This document shows positions 1-6,321 of a stretch of 6,321 bases of DNA, piece after piece. The notes under the pieces are model-generated. The model searched no databases, was not told the origin of the DNA, and worked only from the letters and a program-made list of their open reading frames with translations. The translations under genes and the position numbers were made by a program. How positions within the stretch are numbered: position 1 is the stretch's first letter; each line of letters opens with the position of its first letter. The DNA comes from a virus, in IMG/VR virus record IMGVR_UViG_3300045988_033151, positions 1 through 6,321 of that record; one strand, written 5' to 3'.

Positions 1-248
1 GCGGAATATTCGGAGGAAAGGGAGTATCAAAAAAGGACCAATTAGAAATCATGAATAAGCAACACGGATATGAATTGGAGAACATGGATTACCAAGCGAA
101 GCTTAACGAAGAAATGGCACAGAGAAACCAAGAACGCCAAAATGAATATTTCGGAATGACAGCAGAATATAATTCCGCAAAGAACCAAAAACAAAGATTA
201 ACAGACGCAGGATTAAACCCAGCGTTAATGTACGGAAGCGCAGGAAGC
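1..248. repeat. Terminal redundancy, left copy; circular-genome assembly overlap identical to 6074-6321
   Basis: I compared both ends of the block by eye. gcggaatattcggaggaaaggg... begins at nt 1 and at nt 6074, and ...atgtacggaagcgcaggaagc ends at nt 248 and at nt 6321. Confidence 0.9.
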
Positions 249-2037: not shown

Positions 2038-2045
2038 CATACGAA

Positions 2046-2070
2046 GTTCTCGAGGTTCTCGAGGTTCTCG
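2046..2070. repeat. 9-bp tandem repeat GTTCTCGAG x2 plus a partial third copy (GTTCTCG); the two full units each contain a CTCGAG palindrome
   Basis: Units read directly at 2046-2054, 2055-2063 and 2064-2070. CTCGAG lies at 2049-2054 and 2058-2063. The repeat begins 9 nt after the VP4 stop codon. Related TTCCTC(A/G)C motifs recur at 2106-2113 and 2126-2133. Confidence 0.85.
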
Positions 2071-2084
2071 CTACACATGTAGGT

Positions 2085-2097
2085 GTTGCTTCGCAAC
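2085..2097. other. Small hairpin GTTGC-TTC-GCAAC, next to the near-palindrome CTACAcaTGTAG at 2071-2082
   Basis: Read directly. The hairpin has a 5-bp stem and 3-nt loop. The adjacent 12-nt near-palindrome has only its central pair mismatched. Confidence 0.5.
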
Positions 2098-2154
2098 TCA
2101 TTATTTTCCTCACTTTGTTCGGCCGTTCCTCGCTCTCCCAGCTCGTCACTCAGG

Positions 2155-2178
2155 CACGCTCGACCCGGTCGAGACGTG
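2155..2178. other. GC-rich stem-loop: CACGCTCGAC / GTCGAG(A)CGTG, 10 bp with one bulged A and a 3-nt CCG loop
   Basis: Base pairs checked individually: 2159-2164 pair with 2168-2173, and 2155-2158 pair with 2175-2178, with A2174 bulged. TCAGGC hexamers flank it at 2150-2155 and 2187-2192. Confidence 0.7.
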
Positions 2179-2193
2179 TAGTAGTATCAGGCT

Positions 2194-2215
2194 GTTCTTT
2201 GTCTCGGCAAAGAAC
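2194..2215. other. Stem-loop GTTCTTTG-TCTCGG-CAAAGAAC (8-bp perfect stem, 6-nt loop)
   Basis: Read directly: 2194-2201 pair with 2208-2215. No T-tract follows immediately, so it does not look like a classical intrinsic terminator. Confidence 0.65.
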
Positions 2216-2258
2216 CAAACCGACCCCTTCTCTCATTTTTTATTAGCAATGCTGATAG

Positions 2259-2282
2259 AGAAGTGTTAAAGAAGTGTTAAAG
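2259..2282. repeat. 11-bp perfect tandem repeat AGAAGTGTTAA x2.2, just upstream of the promoter-like motif; candidate operator or UP-like element
   Basis: Units at 2259-2269 and 2270-2280, with a partial copy at 2281-2282. The period of 11 bp is about one helical turn. The repeat ends 11 nt before the TTTG at 2294. Confidence 0.8.
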
Positions 2283-2293
2283 TCAGTCATTTG

Positions 2294-2325
2294 TTTGGTT
2301 GGCTTATATTTTCGTGTTATCTTTG
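2294..2325 (+). promoter_or_regulatory. Candidate Bacteroides-type sigma-A promoter: -33 TTTG (2294-2297), 20-nt spacer, -7 TAnnTTTG (TATCTTTG, 2318-2325)
   Basis: It matches the published Bacteroides consensus (TTTG ... TAnnTTTG). I found no other exact TAnnTTTG when scanning the window by eye. It sits in an intergenic region about 50 nt upstream of the first ORF (2375) of the + strand gene string. Confidence 0.5.
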
Positions 2326-2374: not shown

Positions 2375-2596
2375 ATGGAAAGAGAAATAGAAATAAAAGC
2401 TAAAGAAAATGACTCATACAAACTAATCCTCAAGCTAGAGTTAAGCAAAGATGACGAAGAATTACTAAAGAAAAAATTCAACTTACTTGCGTTATCACCA
2501 AAATTAAACAATGAACAGAGCGAAGTAATTGAAACACTATTCGGATATCATTGGTATAAAAATTGTGAAATCAATATAATTAAACAATATGAATAA
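2375..2596 (+). CDS. Hypothetical protein, 73 aa (ORFan, charged and helical-looking)
   Basis: This is the first ATG ORF after the promoter-like motif. Its stop overlaps the next ORF start in ATGAATAA, an 8-nt overlap typical of coupled phage genes. I recognise no family. Confidence 0.55.
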   Translation: MEREIEIKAKENDSYKLILKLELSKDDEELLKKKFNLLALSPKLNNEQSEVIETLFGYHWYKNCEINIIKQYE

Positions 2597-2840
2597 GATT
2601 TACAGCGTATTAAGAATAGACTCTTGGAATAATGCTCAAGAAGTCTATACAGGAAGAATTAGAGACTGCAAAAAAAGTCTAAAAACTATAGGGGAAGAAT
2701 ATAAGAAAAGAGGATGGGAAGTAAAAAACTACGACTTCACATTAATCCTAAGATCAAATGCGTCAGACGATAAGAGATGCACATATTTAATACATTGTCC
2801 TGAATATGAGAAACAATACAATAGCTGTTATAGCGGATAA
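2589..2840 (+). CDS. Hypothetical protein, 83 aa (ORFan)
   Basis: ATG start overlaps the stop of the 2375 ORF. It is on the same strand as all other genes, and the residue composition looks globular (W, Y, C, mixed charge). I recognise no family. Confidence 0.55.
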   Translation: MNKIYSVLRIDSWNNAQEVYTGRIRDCKKSLKTIGEEYKKRGWEVKNYDFTLILRSNASDDKRCTYLIHCPEYEKQYNSCYSG

Positions 2841-2974
2841 AGAAACGGGGGTCGTAAAATCCATAGAAATGGAAATTATAACCTCAAGAACAATAAAGGA
2901 ACAAATCATGTAGGAGTGCAAAGAAAGCATGAGAAAAATGATTAATAAAAGAAAATATAAAATATTAACCATAA

Positions 2975-3181
2975 ATGTATAATTATATGACTAAAGAGCA
3001 AAAAGAAAAATTAGTTACAGCAGTAGTAACTTTCATTACTACAGTATTAAGTATTCTATTCTTACAGGCATGTACAATGAGTATGAGTATAGCGAAAAAC
3101 AATAACGGCACTTTCGAACAAAGGCATGAAAACAGTACTAACGTGGATAGTACGAAAATTAATAACAATTTTAATAAGTAA
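2975..3181 (+). CDS. Small membrane-anchored protein or putative lipoprotein, 68 aa (alternative start at Met5, nt 2987)
   Basis: It has a charged n-region (TKEQKEK), an 18-residue hydrophobic stretch LVTAVVTFITTVLSILFL (nt 3011-3064), then Q-A-C with Cys33 at nt 3071-3073 (lipobox-like L-Q-A-C), followed by a polar N/S/T-rich tail. Confidence 0.6.
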   Translation: MYNYMTKEQKEKLVTAVVTFITTVLSILFLQACTMSMSIAKNNNGTFEQRHENSTNVDSTKINNNFNK

Positions 3182-3186
3182 AAATT

Positions 3187-3423
3187 ATGGAAAGAAATGG
3201 AATGAACTTATTCAGAGTCGAGAAAACAAAAGTAAACGAAGAGGAAAGATTCGTAATCGTATGCGGAAAATATCGCGCGTCAAAAATGGAATTCAAAACA
3301 AAAGAAAATGCAGAAGACTACATTGCAAACATGATAGACTGGGACATGTTAGTGACCATTGTAGGACAACTAAGCGAATATACCGCAGAAAAAAAAGTAA
3401 ACGAAATGTTAAACAATAAATAA
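3187..3423 (+). CDS. Hypothetical protein, 78 aa (ORFan)
   Basis: It starts 5 nt after the previous stop and ends 8 nt before VP1. The sequence looks protein-like, with hydrophobic core segments (FVIVCGKY, MIDWDMLVTIVGQL). I recognise no family. Confidence 0.6.
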   Translation: MERNGMNLFRVEKTKVNEEERFVIVCGKYRASKMEFKTKENAEDYIANMIDWDMLVTIVGQLSEYTAEKKVNEMLNNK

Positions 3424-3431
3424 ATAAAACT

Positions 3432-5432
3432 ATGGTCAAGAAAACTATCGGAAAAAACACGCTGGGTGACAACAACAAAATGAAAGTCGCTATGCGTGAC
3501 TACGAGAGAAGTACACATAACCTCTCATACGTCTGGAGAAATACACAAGCACCGGGAACACTAGTACCTTGTATGAAAATTCTAGCAACACCAGGAACAA
3601 CATACAAAATTAAAGCAAACAGCCATATTCTAACACATCCTACAGTAGGCCCTCTATTCGGGGCGTATAAATTTCAGATGGATATATTTACCGTGCCGAT
3701 CAGGCTTTATAACGCACTGCTTCACAACAATGCATTAAATGTAGGACTTGATATGGCGAAAGTAAAATTTCCGAAATTTGCCATAACATTAGGGAAAGAT
3801 AGTTCTAAAACTCCATGGAGCAGCAGTAGTTTGCTAGCATACTTAGGTTTCAGAAACAAGGGTAGAGAATTATCGGATTCACTAGAGTTTACGCACAAAT
3901 TTAATGCTATTCCTGCAATCGCATATTATGACATTTTTAAAAATTACTATGCAAACAAACAGGAAGAAGATTTCTACACAATCGGACTAGGCAAAACCGT
4001 AGAATTACCTTATCCAAATAACGAAAGCAATGCGATAAAGGTAATGATTAAACCGGGAGGGGGAGCAGGTTGGCTTTTGTCGAAAGCAAACTCAATCGAC
4101 ACTTATACCATAAAAACAGGGTATGATTCTGCAATTATAGAAGTCGGGAACTCCATATTCCCTGCTGATGGAAATATAGAAGATTTAGTATTATTAGGTG
4201 AGTATGGAGGGAAACCAGGCAGTTCAACGCAATACGTACAAATTACGGCGAAACAAGCAGCAGGAAGCAAGAGAATCGAATATGCAAATAACATCTGGCA
4301 GATACCATTCACTATTACAGACGACCCTAATAACAGAATATTTACGCTCAAAGCGATTAAAACATCAGGAGCAGTCACGTTAAAGTCTCATCCATTAAAA
4401 GATATTGATAAGACTAGAGAAGAAATACTATCACTAGGCAGCCAAGAGGGATTAATTCAATTCGAAGCAAAGAAAGGGAATATTACCCAAGAATATCTCA
4501 AAGACCTTATTCAAGTAGGAACAGAATTTTATAGTTCAAATCCTCAAATGGGGCTAGCTGTAAAAACTTATCAATCAGATATTTTTAACAATTGGATTAA
4601 TACAGAATGGATTGACGGAGAAAACGGAATCAATGCAATTACAGCAGTAGATGTATCAGAAGGTAAGTTGGAATTAGACACGTTGATTCTAGCAAAAAAA
4701 GTTTACAATATGCTTAACAGAATCGCAATCAGCGGAGGAACTTACAATGATTGGATTGAAACAGTATATACAACCGATTATGTAAGTAGAAGCGAAATCC
4801 CTGAATATCAAGGAGGTATGTCTAGCGAAATTCAATTCCAAGAAGTTGTAAGTAATAGCGCAACAGAGGAAGAACCGCTAGGAACACTAGCAGGCCGAGG
4901 AATTAACGTAGGTAAAAAAGGTGGAGACATTACAGTAAAAGTTACAGAACCATGTTACCTAATGGGTATATGTAGTATCACGCCAAGAGTAGATTACTCT
5001 CAAGGAAATGATTTTGATATAATGCTAGATAACCTCGACCAAATTCACAAACCGCAACTCGACCAAATCGGTTTTCAAGACTTGCTCACGTGGAAAATGG
5101 ATGCAAACCAAATTGTGTATGAAAATGGTGTACTAAAGGAATATAGCGTAGGGAAACAACCTGCATGGATAGACTACATGACGAATTACAATAAAACATA
5201 CGGTAATTTTGCAGTAGGAGAATCAGAGTCATTCATGGTACTAAACCGAATATACCAAACAGAGTGGGAGGAAAATACGCCGAAATTAAACAATTCAACC
5301 TATATTGATCCACAAGCATATAATTATGTATTTGCAGATACAGATTTACAGAGTATGAATTTTTGGGTACAAATCGGATTTGATATCGAAGCGCGAATTG
5401 TAATGAGTGCCAAAGTAATGCCAACACTTTAA
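3432..5432 (+). CDS. VP1: VP1 major capsid protein (Microviridae F/VP1 jelly-roll), 666 aa; an alternative start at Met17 (nt 3480) is possible
   Basis: It is the largest ORF. The sequence shows characteristic microvirus capsid blocks: HNLSYVWRNTQAPGTLVP, THPTVGPLFGAYKFQMDIFTVPIRLY, AIPAIAYYDIFKNYYAN, KTYQSDIFNNW and RIAISGGTYNDWIETVY. Confidence 0.9.
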   Translation: MVKKTIGKNTLGDNNKMKVAMRDYERSTHNLSYVWRNTQAPGTLVPCMKILATPGTTYKIKANSHILTHPTVGPLFGAYKFQMDIFTVPIRLYNALLHNNALNVGLDMAKVKFPKFAITLGKDSSKTPWSSSSLLAYLGFRNKGRELSDSLEFTHKFNAIPAIAYYDIFKNYYANKQEEDFYTIGLGKTVELPYPNNESNAIKVMIKPGGGAGWLLSKANSIDTYTIKTGYDSAIIEVGNSIFPADGNIEDLVLLGEYGGKPGSSTQYVQITAKQAAGSKRIEYANNIWQIPFTITDDPNNRIFTLKAIKTSGAVTLKSHPLKDIDKTREEILSLGSQEGLIQFEAKKGNITQEYLKDLIQVGTEFYSSNPQMGLAVKTYQSDIFNNWINTEWIDGENGINAITAVDVSEGKLELDTLILAKKVYNMLNRIAISGGTYNDWIETVYTTDYVSRSEIPEYQGGMSSEIQFQEVVSNSATEEEPLGTLAGRGINVGKKGGDITVKVTEPCYLMGICSITPRVDYSQGNDFDIMLDNLDQIHKPQLDQIGFQDLLTWKMDANQIVYENGVLKEYSVGKQPAWIDYMTNYNKTYGNFAVGESESFMVLNRIYQTEWEENTPKLNNSTYIDPQAYNYVFADTDLQSMNFWVQIGFDIEARIVMSAKVMPTL

Positions 5433-5443
5433 TATTTTATAAC

Positions 5444-5782
5444 ATGAAAAAAGTAGGAATTAATTACAGAAGTAAGCTAGGAACACCTCTAGTAGAGGGT
5501 GAAAGAATTGAGTTAAAAATTGACAGAATGACGCAAAATAACGAACCTATCGGAGAAAGCGCGCCACTAATATATACACCAAGGAAAGACGGAGTAGTAG
5601 CAGCATACGACATCCGGACGGATAAGTGGGATATTGCCTTAGATGCAATGGAAAAGGTCAATCGAACAAGAGGTAAGATATCAGAGTTAGGGGGTATGCG
5701 AGAAGCCAAAAAGAGCATTGATGAGGAAGCAAAGAAAGCCGTAGCCAACGGTGCAATTGAGTCGAAAAACGAACTCAATTAG
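5444..5782 (+). CDS. Hypothetical protein, 112 aa, immediately downstream of VP1 (possible scaffolding or assembly factor; function not established)
   Basis: ATG lies 11 nt after the VP1 stop on the same strand. It has a charged C-terminal half and a PLIYTPRKDGVVAAYDIRTDKWDIALDAM block that looks conserved, though I cannot tie it to a named family without a search. Confidence 0.6.
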   Translation: MKKVGINYRSKLGTPLVEGERIELKIDRMTQNNEPIGESAPLIYTPRKDGVVAAYDIRTDKWDIALDAMEKVNRTRGKISELGGMREAKKSIDEEAKKAVANGAIESKNELN

Positions 5783-5843
5783 CATGTAAACACTTTAGTA
5801 AGCAAAGCTTATACGTGTGAAATGAACGACCATTAAAACCGAA

Positions 5844-5895
5844 GATTTCGCGGGGACGCACGGCATAGATTGTCCAATAAGTTTACCGCGGAATC
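5844..5895. other. Long-range stem: GATTTCGCGG (5844-5853) pairs with CCGCGGAATC (5886-5895), 10 bp with one T-G pair; an inner GGAC/GTCC stem lies at 5854-5857 / 5872-5875
   Basis: Pairs checked individually. The structure encloses the first copy of the ACGCACG..GCATA direct repeat. Confidence 0.5.
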
Positions 5896-5927
5896 CTCTT
5901 TAAAGAGGGTGGTACGCACGTAGCATA
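5856..5927. repeat. Imperfect direct repeat ACGCACG-GCATA (5856-5867) and ACGCACGtaGCATA (5914-5927)
   Basis: Read directly. The two copies are 58 nt apart in the VP1-side intergenic region. Confidence 0.55.
5895..5908. other. Perfect 14-bp palindrome CCTCTTTAAAGAGG
   Basis: Read directly. It shares the CTCTTT/AAAGAG core with the hairpin at 5950-5966. Confidence 0.75.
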
Positions 5928-5949
5928 TATTATCTAGTTTATAATGTAA

Positions 5950-5966
5950 GCTCTTTTAGAAAGAGC
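5950..5966. other. Hairpin GCTCTTT-TAG-AAAGAGC (7-bp stem, 3-nt loop), 26 nt upstream of the VP2 start
   Basis: Read directly: 5950-5956 pair with 5960-5966. Confidence 0.7.
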
Positions 5967-5991
5967 GAAATCAATGTAAAAATATATTATT

Positions 5992-6321
5992 ATGGGATTT
6001 TTAAAAAATGCATTAGGAATGATTGGTGATGCAGCCACAGGAGGACTAGCAAGCGGAGTAGGAAGTTTTGTAAGCGGAATATTCGGAGGAAAGGGAGTAT
6101 CAAAAAAGGACCAATTAGAAATCATGAATAAGCAACACGGATATGAATTGGAGAACATGGATTACCAAGCGAAGCTTAACGAAGAAATGGCACAGAGAAA
6201 CCAAGAACGCCAAAATGAATATTTCGGAATGACAGCAGAATATAATTCCGCAAAGAACCAAAAACAAAGATTAACAGACGCAGGATTAAACCCAGCGTTA
6301 ATGTACGGAAGCGCAGGAAGC
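5992..6321 (+). CDS. VP2: VP2 minor capsid / DNA pilot protein, 5' part; true start of the gene, which continues through the circular junction into nt 249-1031
   Basis: ATG at 5992 is the first ATG after an in-frame TAA at 5977-5979. It is in frame with the track ORF, since 6124 (= 51 + 6073) minus 5992 is 132, or 44 codons, with no intervening stop. The N-terminus reads MGFLKNALGMIGDAATGGLASGVGSFVSGIFGGKG, a Gly-rich hydrophobic start typical of microvirus pilot proteins. Confidence 0.8.
   Translation, partial: MGFLKNALGMIGDAATGGLASGVGSFVSGIFGGKGVSKKDQLEIMNKQHGYELENMDYQAKLNEEMAQRNQERQNEYFGMTAEYNSAKNQKQRLTDAGLNPALMYGSAGS
6074..6321. repeat. Terminal redundancy, right copy; circular-genome assembly overlap identical to 1-248
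   Basis: Same comparison as the left copy. The offset is exactly 6073 nt. Confidence 0.9.

What the first reader, a model, noticed from the sequence alone, without database searches (positions are those of the whole stretch)
2038..2258. Compositionally inverted, repeat- and hairpin-dense noncoding island downstream of the Rep gene
The genome is A-rich and purine-rich on the + strand, and it is packed with genes separated by 1-11 nt or overlapping. Immediately after VP4 there is a roughly 220-nt stretch with no credible ORF on either strand. By my hand count, 2041-2240 is 51.5% GC with only 17.5% A and 61.5% pyrimidine. The island contains GTTCTCGAG in 2.8 tandem copies (2046-2070) and recurring TTCCTC(A/G)C motifs 20 nt apart (2106, 2126). 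It also has a near-palindrome CTACAcaTGTAG (2071-2082), a GTTGC/GCAAC hairpin (2085-2097), a 10-bp bulged GC stem-loop (2155-2178) flanked by TCAGGC hexamers, and an 8-bp stem-loop (2194-2215). A 6-kb ssDNA phage is unlikely to keep this much noncoding DNA without a function. I see three candidate functions. (a) It could be a complementary-strand initiation signal; phiX174 and G4 carry hairpin primosome or primase recognition sites in intergenic DNA. (b) It could be the VP4 nick site with iteron-like repeats. (c) It could be a structured RNA or horizontally acquired DNA. From memory, the segment GTTCGGC...TTCCTCGCTC...CGCTCG..GGTCG...GTATCAG loosely resembles the ColE1/pBR322 backbone just downstream of ori (CTTCCTCGCTCACTGACTCGCTGCGCTCGGTCGTTCGGC...GGTATCAG). 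As I recall, that backbone region lies near primosome assembly sites. The resemblance consists of short shared words only and needs a real alignment.
Basis: partly seen in the sequence, partly recalled or inferred. Interest (0 to 1): 0.72.

Follow-up and report, generated by a model that had tools for sequence, protein, structure and literature searches.

The report
Movable noncoding cassette beside microvirus Rep
The 220-base noncoding stretch after the replication gene of this gut microvirus is real, conserved and rich in hairpins, but it is an optional, movable cassette that most likely ends the phage's long transcript, and it is neither a replication nick site nor vector contamination.

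Summary

It is not vector, plasmid, host, tRNA or any Rfam family. The ColE1 resemblance is one 10-mer, no better than chance.

About 35 related gut microvirus contigs carry the island. Where present, it is more conserved (0.90-0.996) than the flanking genes (0.70-0.90). It is nevertheless dispensable and modular:
- One close relative lacks it entirely.
- Others carry at least five different partial deletions.
- Repeat copy number varies.

In sister clades (VP4 62-68% identical) the same cassette lies between VP2 and VP4. There its last hairpin (H3), inside a basal stem and followed by a U-run, forms a textbook intrinsic terminator, in the position of phiX174 T_H. H3 covaries, and its loop appears to pair with the 3' flank. 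A 33-nt core also occurs inverted in an unrelated microvirus.

The stretch between hairpins H1 and H2 is the most C-rich untranslated stretch of the genome, which is Rho-loading-like.

Best reading (about 0.4): an accessory end-of-operon 3'-UTR and termination cassette. A complementary-strand origin is not excluded (about 0.2). A Rep nick site is unlikely.

By-product: more distant relatives hold an unrelated, strongly covarying structured element, absent from Rfam, in the same slot.

The parts
2038..2258 (+). Whole island: noncoding, pyrimidine-rich, hairpin-dense cassette between the VP4 (Rep) stop codon and the promoter region of the next operon.
   Evidence: Composition. Folds. Presence, absence and conservation in relatives.
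2042..2070 (+). 9-nt tandem repeat (CGAGGTTCT/GTTCTCGAG, 3.2 copies, containing CTCGAG palindromes). This is the most variable part of the island.
   Evidence: TRF. Copy number is 3 in the window and L003, 4 in L026 and 5 in L005. L001-type relatives have CGCCATGCTCGAGATGCTCGCTGTACTCGACAG instead.
2071..2082 (+). Near-palindrome CTACACATGTAG (4-bp hairpin).
   Evidence: It is not conserved in L001-type relatives.
2085..2097 (+). Hairpin H1, GTTGC-TTC-GCAAC.
   Evidence: L007 has A to G, giving a U.G pair that works only on the + strand. H1 is also present in the L114 cassette.
2098..2154 (+). C- and T-rich, G- and A-poor spacer, predicted unstructured (A 10.5%, C 37%, G 16%, T 37%). It is a candidate Rho-loading (rut-like) stretch.
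   Evidence: The window starting at 2089 has 32 C in 78 nt, the highest C count found, with C/G 2.67 against a genome median of 0.75. The L114 homologue differs in sequence but keeps the composition.
2155..2178 (+). Hairpin H2: 10 bp with a bulged A, loop CCG. It is flanked by TCAGGC hexamers at 2149 and 2187.
   Evidence: The loop varies (G/A). L114 has an unrelated 9-bp hairpin (GTTTGGGGTCGCAAGCCCCAAAC) at the same place.
2179..2193 (+). Variable spacer (TAGTAGTATCAGGCT). It serves as a breakpoint for several natural deletions.
2194..2215 (+). Hairpin H3, GTTCTTTG-TCTCGG-CAAAGAAC. This is the most conserved core.
   Evidence: Exact in 9 viral and 14 metagenome contigs. The stem covaries in L113, L115 and L122.
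2216..2235 (+). 3' flank CAAACCGACCCCTTCTCTCA. CCGA (2220-2223) can pair with loop TCGG (2204-2207). CCTTCTCTC is the 3' arm of the basal terminator stem seen in sister clades.
   Evidence: the loop-flank pair is G:C, T:A or C:G in three variants; basal stem plus H3 plus U-run in L113, L115 and L122.
2236..2262 (+). U-run TTTTTTATT followed by a mini-hairpin (TTAGC-AAT-GCTGA) and GATAGAGAA, which can pair back onto the U-run through U-A and U.G pairs.
   Evidence: A/G changes in the 3' arm keep U-A or U.G pairs.
2259..2282 (+). Tandem AGAAGTGTTAA x2.2 (GTTAAAG motifs). Not part of the island. It is conserved in all relatives, including the island-less L004, and recurs upstream of the promoter family-wide.
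2294..2325 (+). Bacteroidota-type promoter: TTTG (2294-2297), 20 nt, TATCTTTG (2318-2325). It drives the ORFs from 2375 onward and bounds the island on the 3' side.
   Evidence: Read directly from the sequence. Conserved in all relatives. The same TTTG-N18-22-TAnnTTTG arrangement occurs in 21 of the more distant relatives. The motif identity rests on my knowledge of Bacteroides promoters.

Best explanation
The island is an accessory, + strand-specific noncoding cassette that marks the end of the long rightward transcription unit (VP1, VP2, VP4). It acts as a 3'-UTR and transcription-termination zone placed just before the promoter of the next operon.

Proposed mechanism (inferred, not shown):
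1. After the last ribosome leaves at the VP4 stop codon, the RNA exposes an unusually C-rich, G-poor, unstructured stretch (2098-2154). This could load Rho.
2. Stable hairpins H1, H2 and H3 bracket this stretch. They can pause RNA polymerase and protect the 3' end from exonucleases.
3. The terminal module (H3 + CCAAACCGACCCCTTCTCTC + U-run) is the homologue of a canonical intrinsic terminator that sister clades carry between VP2 and VP4. That is the same place as the strongest phiX174 terminator, T_H, between gene H and gene A.
4. In the window's clade the cassette sits after VP4. VP2 and VP4 are now 1 nt apart, so Rep is inside the main transcript.

Because termination in microviruses is leaky and non-essential, the cassette can be shortened or lost (L004 and others). 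The near-invariance of its 58-nt 3' module points to a sequence-specific partner that I cannot name.
For: Shown:
- Position and strand. The island lies directly after a stop codon and about 35 nt before the GTTAAAG repeats and the Bacteroidota-type promoter. The only two + strand terminator-like hits in the whole genome fall in 2085-2305.
- Homology to a terminator. In L113, L115 and L122 the same module folds as basal stem (9-11 bp) + H3 + U6-8, with dG -23 to -32 kcal/mol and z -3.8 to -5.2. It ends roughly 20-25 nt upstream of the VP4 ATG.
- Real + strand structure. The H3 stem covaries (8 to 9 bp by paired insertion; G-C to C-G) and loop TCGN covaries with flank N'CGA. Single changes give U.G pairs only on the + strand (H1 in L007; the U-run hairpin). 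Fold z is -2.5 to -3.0 on + and -1.4 on -.
- rut-like composition. 32 C in 78 nt and C/G 2.67, top 1% of the genome and the only such stretch that is untranslated. L114 keeps the composition with a different sequence.
- Dispensable but selected. Mean pairwise identity is 0.90-0.996 in the island, against 0.85-0.90 in VP4 and 0.70-0.88 in downstream ORFs. Deletion variants.
- Family-wide pattern. A GC-rich structured noncoding region lies either after VP4 or between VP2 and VP4, never elsewhere.

From the literature: phiX174 has an intrinsic terminator, T_H, in the H-A intergenic region, which blocks about 70% of transcription (bioRxiv 10.1101/2020.03.05.979765).
Against: - In the window itself the module is not a canonical intrinsic terminator. 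The 5' arm of the basal stem is missing and the U-run starts 20 nt after H3 (z only -2.1).
- A plain terminator does not need 57 of 58 identical bases across clades whose Rep proteins are only 62% identical. It also does not need a conserved loop and flank.
- A 33-nt core (H3 + flank) occurs inverted relative to the genes in an unrelated microvirus lineage (L020, L024). A strand-specific RNA signal does not predict this.
- The rut assignment rests on composition alone.
- No transcript data were available.
Confidence: 0.4

Rival explanations
1. Complementary-strand (minus-strand) initiation signal. The hairpins form on the packaged + strand ssDNA, stay free of SSB, and recruit host RNA polymerase, primase or a primosome to start stage-I synthesis. 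This would resemble phiX174 PAS, G4 oric, M13 ori(-) or the sso cassettes of rolling-circle plasmids.
For: - + strand ssDNA folds better than shuffles (z -3.0), and the - strand folds less well.
- The cassette keeps its orientation in four VP4 clades while changing position.
- It is dispensable, and it is swapped for unrelated structured cassettes in related genomes. From my own knowledge, this is the behaviour of plasmid sso elements.
Against: - There is no similarity to any known origin, and no promoter-like duplex sits within the hairpins.
- The core is inverted in L020, which would destroy a strand-specific ssDNA signal.
- The conserved U-run, the basal stem and the C-rich spacer are features of transcripts, not of priming sites.
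- The family-wide conserved noncoding block is elsewhere, at about 5910-6000.
- L004 is otherwise intact without the island.
Confidence: 0.2
2. A sequence-specific structured RNA (or ssDNA) device. The about 58-nt H3 module, with its loop-flank contact, is recognised by a host or phage factor, for example as a decoy, a regulator of Rep expression or a stability element. It spreads horizontally between co-infecting gut microviruses. Termination would be secondary.
For: - 57 of 58 nt are identical from clade I to clade IV, while VP4 drops to 62% identity.
- Loop-flank covariation is seen in three variants.
- The 33-nt core is shared with an unrelated lineage and is invariant between two copies whose flanks differ by about 7-10%.
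- The same slot in other lineages holds a strongly covarying structured element, R.
Against: - Covariation rests on two independent changes, so chance is about 0.1.
- The linker (4-5 nt) looks too short to span an 8-bp stem in a classical H-type pseudoknot (my own assessment).
- L022 and L029 break the flank pairing.
- No partner has been identified, and there is no Rfam match.
Confidence: 0.15
3. A double-stranded DNA protein-binding site. The 8-6-8 palindrome GTTCTTTG-N6-CAAAGAAC would be a site for a dimeric regulator or a tyrosine recombinase (Xer-type attP or dimer resolution).
For: - The inverted-repeat architecture has a 6-bp spacer.
- Function would be orientation-independent, which is compatible with the inverted L020 copy.
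- This virus family is temperate by Xer-like integration: a Dysgonomonas prophage carries dif-like att repeats, as reported by Krupovic & Forterre 2011 (PMC3091885).
Against: - The stem covaries in sequence, which argues for structure rather than a fixed protein-binding sequence.
- It has no resemblance to dif or to the Dysgonomonas att site.
- A more dif-like, though weakly supported, sequence lies at 2964-2991, outside the island.
- The 22-mer is absent from 185,579 species-representative genomes.
Confidence: 0.08
4. Rep (VP4) nick site, the viral-strand origin, with iteron-like repeats.
For: - It is adjacent to the rep gene on one side or the other in all clades.
- It has tandem repeats and hairpins, as in CRESS-DNA virus origins.
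Against: - The island is absent from the intact relative L004 and decayed in L121.
- The repeats vary in number or are replaced.
- The unpaired spacers are the least conserved parts.
- The core is inverted in L020.
- The only noncoding block conserved across the whole family is in 5910-6000.
Confidence: 0.03
5. Assembly chimera or vector or host contamination (for example a ColE1 backbone).
For: Foreign-looking composition. Shared 10-mer TTCCTCGCTC with pBR322.
Against: - The island is present at the same locus in independent assemblies from many samples and projects: IMG/VR, ENA, JGI and Logan.
- There is no BLAST hit to plasmids or phages.
- There is no exact 22-mer in 596 Gb of genomes.
- The similarity to pBR322 is at chance level.
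Confidence: 0.01

Closest known systems
phiX174 terminator T_H (H-A intergenic region) and the other leaky intrinsic terminators of Microviridae
   Same: - It is a noncoding hairpin + U-run element at the end of the late transcript.
- In sister clades it lies exactly between the pilot-protein gene (VP2 = H) and the Rep gene (VP4 = A).
- It is non-essential, so termination is presumably leaky. T_H blocks about 70% (bioRxiv 10.1101/2020.03.05.979765).
   Different: - There is no sequence similarity.
- It is about 220 nt long, with three hairpins and a C-rich spacer, instead of a single hairpin.
- In the window it lies after Rep, and the hairpin and U-run are 20 nt apart.
- The 3' module is far more conserved than a terminator needs to be.
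Rho-dependent terminators (rut site followed by pause hairpins)
   Same: An untranslated, C-rich, G-poor, weakly structured stretch of about 60-80 nt lies immediately after a stop codon and is followed by stable hairpins.
   Different: The evidence is composition only. Rho dependence is untested. rut sites are not normally conserved at the sequence level.
Single-strand origins: phiX174 n' (PAS) site, G4 oric, M13 ori(-), ssoA/ssoU cassettes of rolling-circle plasmids
   Same: Strand-specific hairpin clusters in noncoding DNA of an ssDNA replicon. They are dispensable and exchangeable as cassettes.
   Different: - None of their conserved motifs was found.
- An inverted copy exists in another lineage.
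- U-run and basal-stem features point to RNA.
- It is not at the position (after the capsid gene) used by phiX174 and G4.
Element R, an unnamed structured element found here in the same slot of more distant relatives
   Same: It occupies the same genomic slot (after VP4, before the GTTAAAG motifs and the promoter). It is GC-rich, + strand-specific, and absent from annotation.
   Different: It is not homologous. The covariance model R1 scores 125 bits on OP549868 but at most 0.7 bits on the window. R is a multi-helix junction with 17 of 30 compensatory pairs. The island is a string of separate hairpins.

Membership tests
Intrinsic (Rho-independent) terminator | Stable GC-containing hairpin followed within 0-3 nt by a U-tract, on the sense strand downstream of a gene. 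| tested here: not met
   In the window, H3 (2194-2215) and the U-run (2236-2241) are 20 nt apart and the 5' arm of the basal stem is absent. The feature is met by the homologous module in L113, L115 and L122. H1 plus TCATTATTTT is flagged weakly, but its T-run is not conserved.
Intrinsic (Rho-independent) terminator | Measured termination of transcription. | not testable with these tools
   No transcript data were available.
Rho-dependent terminator | Untranslated C>G, poorly structured RNA of about 70-80 nt upstream of pause sites. | tested here: met
   32 C and 12 G in the window starting at 2089, with C/G 2.67 against a genome median of 0.75. It is unpaired in the centroid folds. H2 and H3 lie downstream.
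Rho-dependent terminator | Dependence on Rho (bicyclomycin sensitivity, Rho binding). | not testable with these tools
   Requires an experiment.
Complementary-strand origin (PAS / oric / sso) | Structure on the packaged strand, with the same orientation in every carrier. | tested here: inconclusive
   + strand DNA z is -3.0. Orientation is kept in VP4 clades I-IV. The 33-nt core is inverted in L020 and L024.
Complementary-strand origin (PAS / oric / sso) | Orientation-dependent stimulation of ssDNA-to-dsDNA conversion. | not testable with these tools
   Requires an ssi-trap or in vitro assay.
Rolling-circle viral-strand origin (Rep nick site) | Present in every replication-competent genome that encodes the cognate Rep. 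| tested here: not met
   L004 (VP4 93% identical, all genes intact) lacks the island and has no H3-like sequence anywhere. L121 has a decayed copy.
Rolling-circle viral-strand origin (Rep nick site) | Conserved unpaired nick motif. | tested here: not met
   The unpaired spacer 2179-2193 is the most variable part of the conserved core.
Xer/dif-like attachment site | 28-30 bp with two about 11-bp arms resembling dif or a known att site of the family. | tested here: not met
   The best matches to E. coli dif, B. subtilis dif or the Dysgonomonas att (16-18 of 28) are outside the island. The H3 arms are 8 bp and they covary.
ColE1/pBR322 backbone or other vector or plasmid DNA | Alignable similarity beyond chance. 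| tested here: not met
No PLSDB hit has E<1.
Any Rfam family, tRNA or tmRNA | Covariance-model or ARAGORN match. | tested here: not met
   No match in 2038-2374 at E<=10. No tRNA or tmRNA.
Element R (structured element of related microviruses) | Match to covariance model R1. | tested here: not met
   No hit with default filters. The best score with filters off is 0.7 bits for a single 12-nt hairpin.

The most novel reading that the evidence does not exclude
The 58-nt 3' module (H3 hairpin, loop-flank contact, CCCCUUCUCUC, U-run) is a sequence-specific nucleic-acid device that a host or phage factor recognises. On this reading it is more than a terminator. It is kept almost base-for-base across microvirus clades whose Rep proteins have diverged to 62% identity. 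It can sit on either side of Rep and has been passed, inverted, to an unrelated microvirus lineage. Together with element R, it would define a 'Rep-adjacent slot' in gut microviruses that holds interchangeable structured noncoding cassettes with a shared but still unknown function, for example control of Rep dosage, ssDNA priming or countering host defence.
Probability: 0.15. Interest if true: 0.75.

Novelty: new variant of a known kind. Interest (0 to 1): 0.45.

Why it matters
Gut microviruses (Alpavirinae-like phages with Bacteroidales hosts) are abundant, but almost nothing is known about their cis-acting signals, and their noncoding DNA is simply left blank in annotation.

This case shows that their largest noncoding region is a conserved yet optional and movable cassette. 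Its position relative to Rep differs between clades. That difference would change whether Rep is made from the main transcript or only by read-through. If so, it would be a simple evolutionary dial for Rep dosage.

The work also gives concrete, testable elements for engineering or studying these phages:
- a Bacteroidota-type promoter;
- a terminator module;
- a candidate Rho-loading site;
- a family-wide conserved block at 5910-6000.

Finally, it points to an undescribed, strongly covarying structured element (R) in the same slot of related phages.

Tried and rejected
- Vector, plasmid or phage similarity. blastn of 2030-2380 and 2038-2262 against phages and plasmids gave only chance-level short hits. 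A local alignment to the pBR322 ori flank gave a 10-mer only.
- Host origin or prophage junction. The exact 22-mer of H3 is absent from 185,579 genomes.
- Known RNA. Rfam at E<=10 and ARAGORN gave nothing in the island. L020, L024 and seven R-bearing loci also gave no Rfam hits, and 11 loci (six R-bearing, plus island and L020 loci) gave no tRNAs.
- Coding. The + and - strand ORFs were rejected on substitution phase, on indels and on the lack of an ATG.
- Homology to the GC-rich islands of distant relatives (PQ006887, OP549868). Local alignment scores fall within the shuffle range.
- Homology to element R. The covariance model search was negative.
- dif-like site in the island. None was found.
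- Looser DNA patterns in IMG/VR. CAAAGAACCAAACCSACC gave only three unrelated chance hits beyond the known clade. The linker 24-mer is found only in the clade.
- Relatives of the L020 lineage in IMG/VR. None were found, so I could not test whether the inverted core is typical of that lineage.
- MAFFT misaligned the H3 variants, so covariation was tabulated by script instead.
Full report
CONTEXT

The window is a complete circular microvirus genome of 6073 nt with 248 nt of terminal redundancy (1-248 = 6074-6321). All genes are on the + strand:
- VP2 pilot protein, 5993 across the junction to 1031;
- VP4 Rep, 1033-2037;
- small ORFs, 2375-3423;
- VP1 capsid, 3432-5432;
- a 112-aa ORF, 5444-5782.

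The nearest GenBank relatives are uncultured gut microviruses at about 66% nucleotide identity. A Bacteroidales host is indicated by two things. First, there is a perfect Bacteroides-type promoter at 2294-2325 (TTTG, 20 nt, TATCTTTG). The motif identity rests on my own knowledge; its conservation is shown. Second, the only prophage relative found in 185,579 genomes is in Dysgonomonas macrotermitis.

CHECK OF THE OBSERVATION

The strand-composition flip is unique to this stretch.

The 9-nt tandem repeat, the TTCCTCNCT pair and all four hairpins are present. The + strand folds better than shuffled sequence (z -3.0 as DNA, -2.5 as RNA). The - strand does not stand out (z -1.4).

Mechanical ORFs cross the island, but three points argue against coding:
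- Substitutions among relatives fall 5/5/6 over the codon positions.
- Relatives differ by indels that are not multiples of three.
- There is no ATG-initiated frame.

WHAT IT IS NOT

- BLAST against plasmids and phages finds nothing.
- The recalled pBR322 similarity is a single 10-mer at chance level.
- The H3 22-mer is absent from 596 Gb of bacterial and archaeal genomes.
- Rfam and ARAGORN are negative.
- The island recurs at the same locus in independent assemblies from IMG/VR, JGI, ENA and Logan. It is therefore not an assembly artefact.

COMPARATIVE ANATOMY

Relatives retrieved by VP4 similarity, which is unbiased with respect to the island, fall into four clades: I (at least 91% identity to the window), II (about 79%), III (about 68%) and IV (62%).

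In clades I and II the island follows VP4. Where present it is more conserved than the genes around it. Mean pairwise identity is 0.94-0.96 for 2080-2139 and 0.996 for 2200-2229, against 0.85-0.90 in VP4 and 0.70-0.88 downstream.

It is also modular and dispensable:
- L004, whose called ORFs are otherwise intact, lacks it entirely. The junction lies at a CCATRCT/CAATGCT microhomology.
- L006, L008 and L022 lack the 5' 130 nt.
- L009, L025 and L029 have other internal deletions.
- L121 has a decayed H2 and H3.
- L009, L117 and L029 carry an extra insertion of about 95 nt after the U-run.
- The repeat has 3-5 copies or is replaced.

THE KEY RESULT: THE CASSETTE MOVES

In clades III and IV the cassette is not after VP4. 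It lies between VP2 and VP4, in the same orientation, ending roughly 20-25 nt before the VP4 ATG.

L114 has the whole architecture there: a TTCTCGA motif, H1, a pyrimidine-rich linker of different sequence, a different hairpin in place of H2, then H3 and the U-run.

In L113, L115 and L122 the H3 hairpin sits on a 9-11-bp basal stem (GAGAGAAGG/CCTTCTCTC) that is followed directly by U6-8. This is a textbook intrinsic terminator (dG -23 to -32 kcal/mol, z -3.8 to -5.2).

This is the position of phiX174 T_H, the strongest terminator of that phage, between pilot gene H and Rep gene A (bioRxiv 10.1101/2020.03.05.979765).

In the window's clade VP2 and VP4 are 1 nt apart and the module lies after VP4. 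There the 5' basal arm is gone and the U-run is 20 nt from H3.

The pattern holds across the wider family. A GC-rich structured noncoding region is either after VP4 (VP2-VP4 gap of 0-4 nt) or between VP2 and VP4 (gap of 200-310 nt, in which case the post-Rep gap is AT-rich).

STRUCTURE OF THE 3' MODULE

The 58-nt module GGCTGTTCTTTGTCTCGGCAAAGAACCAAACCGACCCCTTCTCTCATTTTTTATTA is identical in clades I, II and L114. It differs at one base in L116.

The variants covary:
- The stem grows from 8 to 9 bp by a paired insertion (L113), or changes G-C to C-G with an added pair (L115, L122).
- The last loop base pairs with a base in the 3' flank in all three versions: TCGG:CCGA, TCGT:ACGA and TCGC:GCGA.

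This suggests a loop-flank (pseudoknot-like) contact. It rests on two independent changes, so chance is roughly 0.1. It is also broken in L022 and L029, and the connecting linker looks short for a classical pseudoknot.

Other single changes give U.G pairs that work only on the + strand: H1 in L007, and the hairpin that pairs the U-run with GAUGGAGAA.

THE C-RICH SPACER

The window 2089-2166 has the highest C count of any 78-nt window in the genome: 32 C, with C/G 2.67 against a median of 0.75. It is the only such stretch that is untranslated. The L114 counterpart keeps the composition but not the sequence. This is what a Rho-loading site looks like, but the evidence is compositional only.

AN UNEXPLAINED OBSERVATION

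A 33-nt stretch, exactly H3 plus its flank partner, occurs in L020 and L024. This is a different microvirus lineage (capsid 608 aa, Rep 532 aa), and the stretch is on the strand opposite to the genes. Faint colinear traces of H1 (TTGCTTCGCA) and of the spacer lie nearby. It sits in the noncoding region between a terminator hairpin and a Bacteroides-type promoter.

The two copies in L020 differ by 7-10% in the flanks but not in the 33-mer.

Neither a strand-specific RNA signal nor an ssDNA signal predicts an inverted copy. Possible explanations are recombination between co-infecting phages with template switching at the palindromic stem, or a function on duplex DNA.

THE SAME SLOT IN OTHER LINEAGES

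Most relatives with 35-55% VP4 identity have a 200-490-nt GC-enriched noncoding gap after Rep.

In 30 of them, and in 25 GenBank microviruses from human, rat, tortoise and lemur gut, this gap holds a different element, which I call R:
- It is a multi-helix junction with 98% of cells paired.
- 17 of 30 pairs show compensatory changes, and 0 of 500 shuffles reach the observed values.
- It has three conserved G.U pairs on the + strand.
- It has no Rfam match.

A covariance model of R scores 125 bits on OP549868, where part of R is annotated as a hypothetical protein. It scores at most 0.7 bits on the window. The island is therefore not a diverged R.

PQ006887 has yet another unrelated hairpin island in the slot.

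WHERE THE ESSENTIAL SIGNALS PROBABLY ARE

The 3' part of the other noncoding region (about 5910-6000) is alignable across the whole family, even at 50% VP4 identity or less. This makes it a better candidate for the Rep nick site.

The Dysgonomonas prophage is flanked by a 20-nt direct repeat, AATGGTAATTATATAACAAA, inside dif-like sites. This is in line with Xer-mediated integration proposed for Bacteroidetes microviruses (PMC3091885).

The window's sequence most like that att site is at 2964-2991, not in the island. The support for it is weak.

CONCLUSION

The finding is a real and interesting noncoding element, but it is accessory.

- Best-supported reading (confidence about 0.4): an end-of-operon 3'-UTR and termination cassette. 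It combines a C-rich Rho-loading-like spacer, hairpins and a terminator-derived 3' module. Its position relative to Rep has shifted between clades.
- A complementary-strand initiation signal cannot be excluded (about 0.2).
- A sequence-specific structured device is the most novel reading still open (about 0.15).
- A duplex-DNA binding site (about 0.08), a Rep nick site (about 0.03) and contamination (about 0.01) are unlikely.

What is shown: the anatomy, the conservation, the dispensability, the relocation, the covariation in H3 and the terminator fold in sister clades. What is inferred: termination, Rho loading and any effect on Rep dosage.

Noticed in passing
L074 about 1950-2105; L032 (GenBank OP549868) 4574-4732; PV067927 4625-4775; 30 of the IMG/VR loci L048-L108: Element R is an about 150-nt multi-helix structured element on the + strand, in the Rep-downstream slot of related gut microviruses. 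98% of cells are paired, 17 of 30 pairs show compensatory changes, 0 of 500 shuffles are as good, and three G.U pairs are conserved. It has no Rfam family or tRNA match. It is unannotated, or overlapped by a 'hypothetical protein' CDS, in 25 GenBank records. It looks like an undescribed structured RNA class.
   Followed up: partly
window 2259-2325: Tandem GAAGTGTTAAAG x2 lies directly upstream of a Bacteroidota-type promoter (TTTG 2294-2297, 20 nt, TATCTTTG 2318-2325). Both are conserved in all close relatives, including the island-less L004. GTTAAAG-like motifs recur upstream of the equivalent promoter across the family. They may be an upstream promoter element or a regulator binding site.
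   Followed up: partly
window 5783-5992, especially about 5910-6000: This is a second noncoding region. Its 3' part (GGTACGCACGTAGCATATATTATCTAGTTTATAATGTAAGCTCTTTTAGAAAGAGC...) is alignable at 72-80% identity across the whole family, even where VP4 is 50% identical or less. It is a better candidate than the island for an essential cis element such as the Rep nick site or the VP2 promoter.
   Followed up: partly
L112 (Dysgonomonas macrotermitis DSM 27370, NZ_FQUC01000005) about 4199-10279; window 2964-2991: This is the only prophage relative found in 185,579 genomes. It is flanked by the direct repeat AATGGTAATTATATAACAAA within dif-like sites (ATTAAACATAA-TGGTAA-TTATATAACAA), one small gene downstream of Rep. 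The window has a loosely similar sequence, ATTAACCATAA-ATGTATAA-TTATATGACTA, at 2964-2991, just before the ORF starting at 2987. It is only moderately conserved in relatives.
   Followed up: partly
L020 (NFZC01009350) 2440-2640 and 8630-8830; L024: This 12.9-kb contig consists of two different genome-length units of about 6.2 kb from another microvirus lineage, in tandem. Each carries the island's 33-nt H3 core, inverted relative to its genes, with faint colinear traces of H1 (TTGCTTCGCA) and of the spacer. No relatives were found in IMG/VR.
   Followed up: partly
L009 5090-5185; L117 3335-3430; L029: A purine-rich insertion of about 95 nt (CGGCTACCGCCGAAGGGACAGGAAGATACAAGGGTCGGAGCAAGAAAAGAAAGGTTAAGGAAGATTCAAGCAATACTTTCGG) sits between the U-run and the GTTAAAG repeats in some clade I and II genomes. 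It begins with a small hairpin, CGGC-TACC-GCCG.
   Followed up: no
L055 and L060 (after Rep) versus L081, L085, L087 and L095 (between VP2 and VP4): Another noncoding sub-module (TTTGGGCGT...GGGCTTTCCGGCTCA.ACA...ACTCGCCT.C.ATCCCTGACGCAC) is found after Rep in some lineages and before Rep in others. Cassette relocation around Rep is therefore recurrent in this family.
   Followed up: no
L034 (GenBank PQ006887) 4600-4800: A rodent-gut relative has an unrelated GC-rich island of four or more hairpins in the same post-Rep slot, followed by the same promoter type.
   Followed up: partly
window 2133 and 2141: C2133T and G2141A always occur together (L001, L002, L007). This turns a possible 3-bp stem, GCU-CUCCC-AGC, into GUU-CUCCC-AAC. 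It could be covariation or simply shared ancestry.
   Followed up: no
window 1-248 and 6074-6321: This is terminal redundancy of a circular assembly. The unit genome is 6073 nt, and VP2 runs across the junction.
   Followed up: yes
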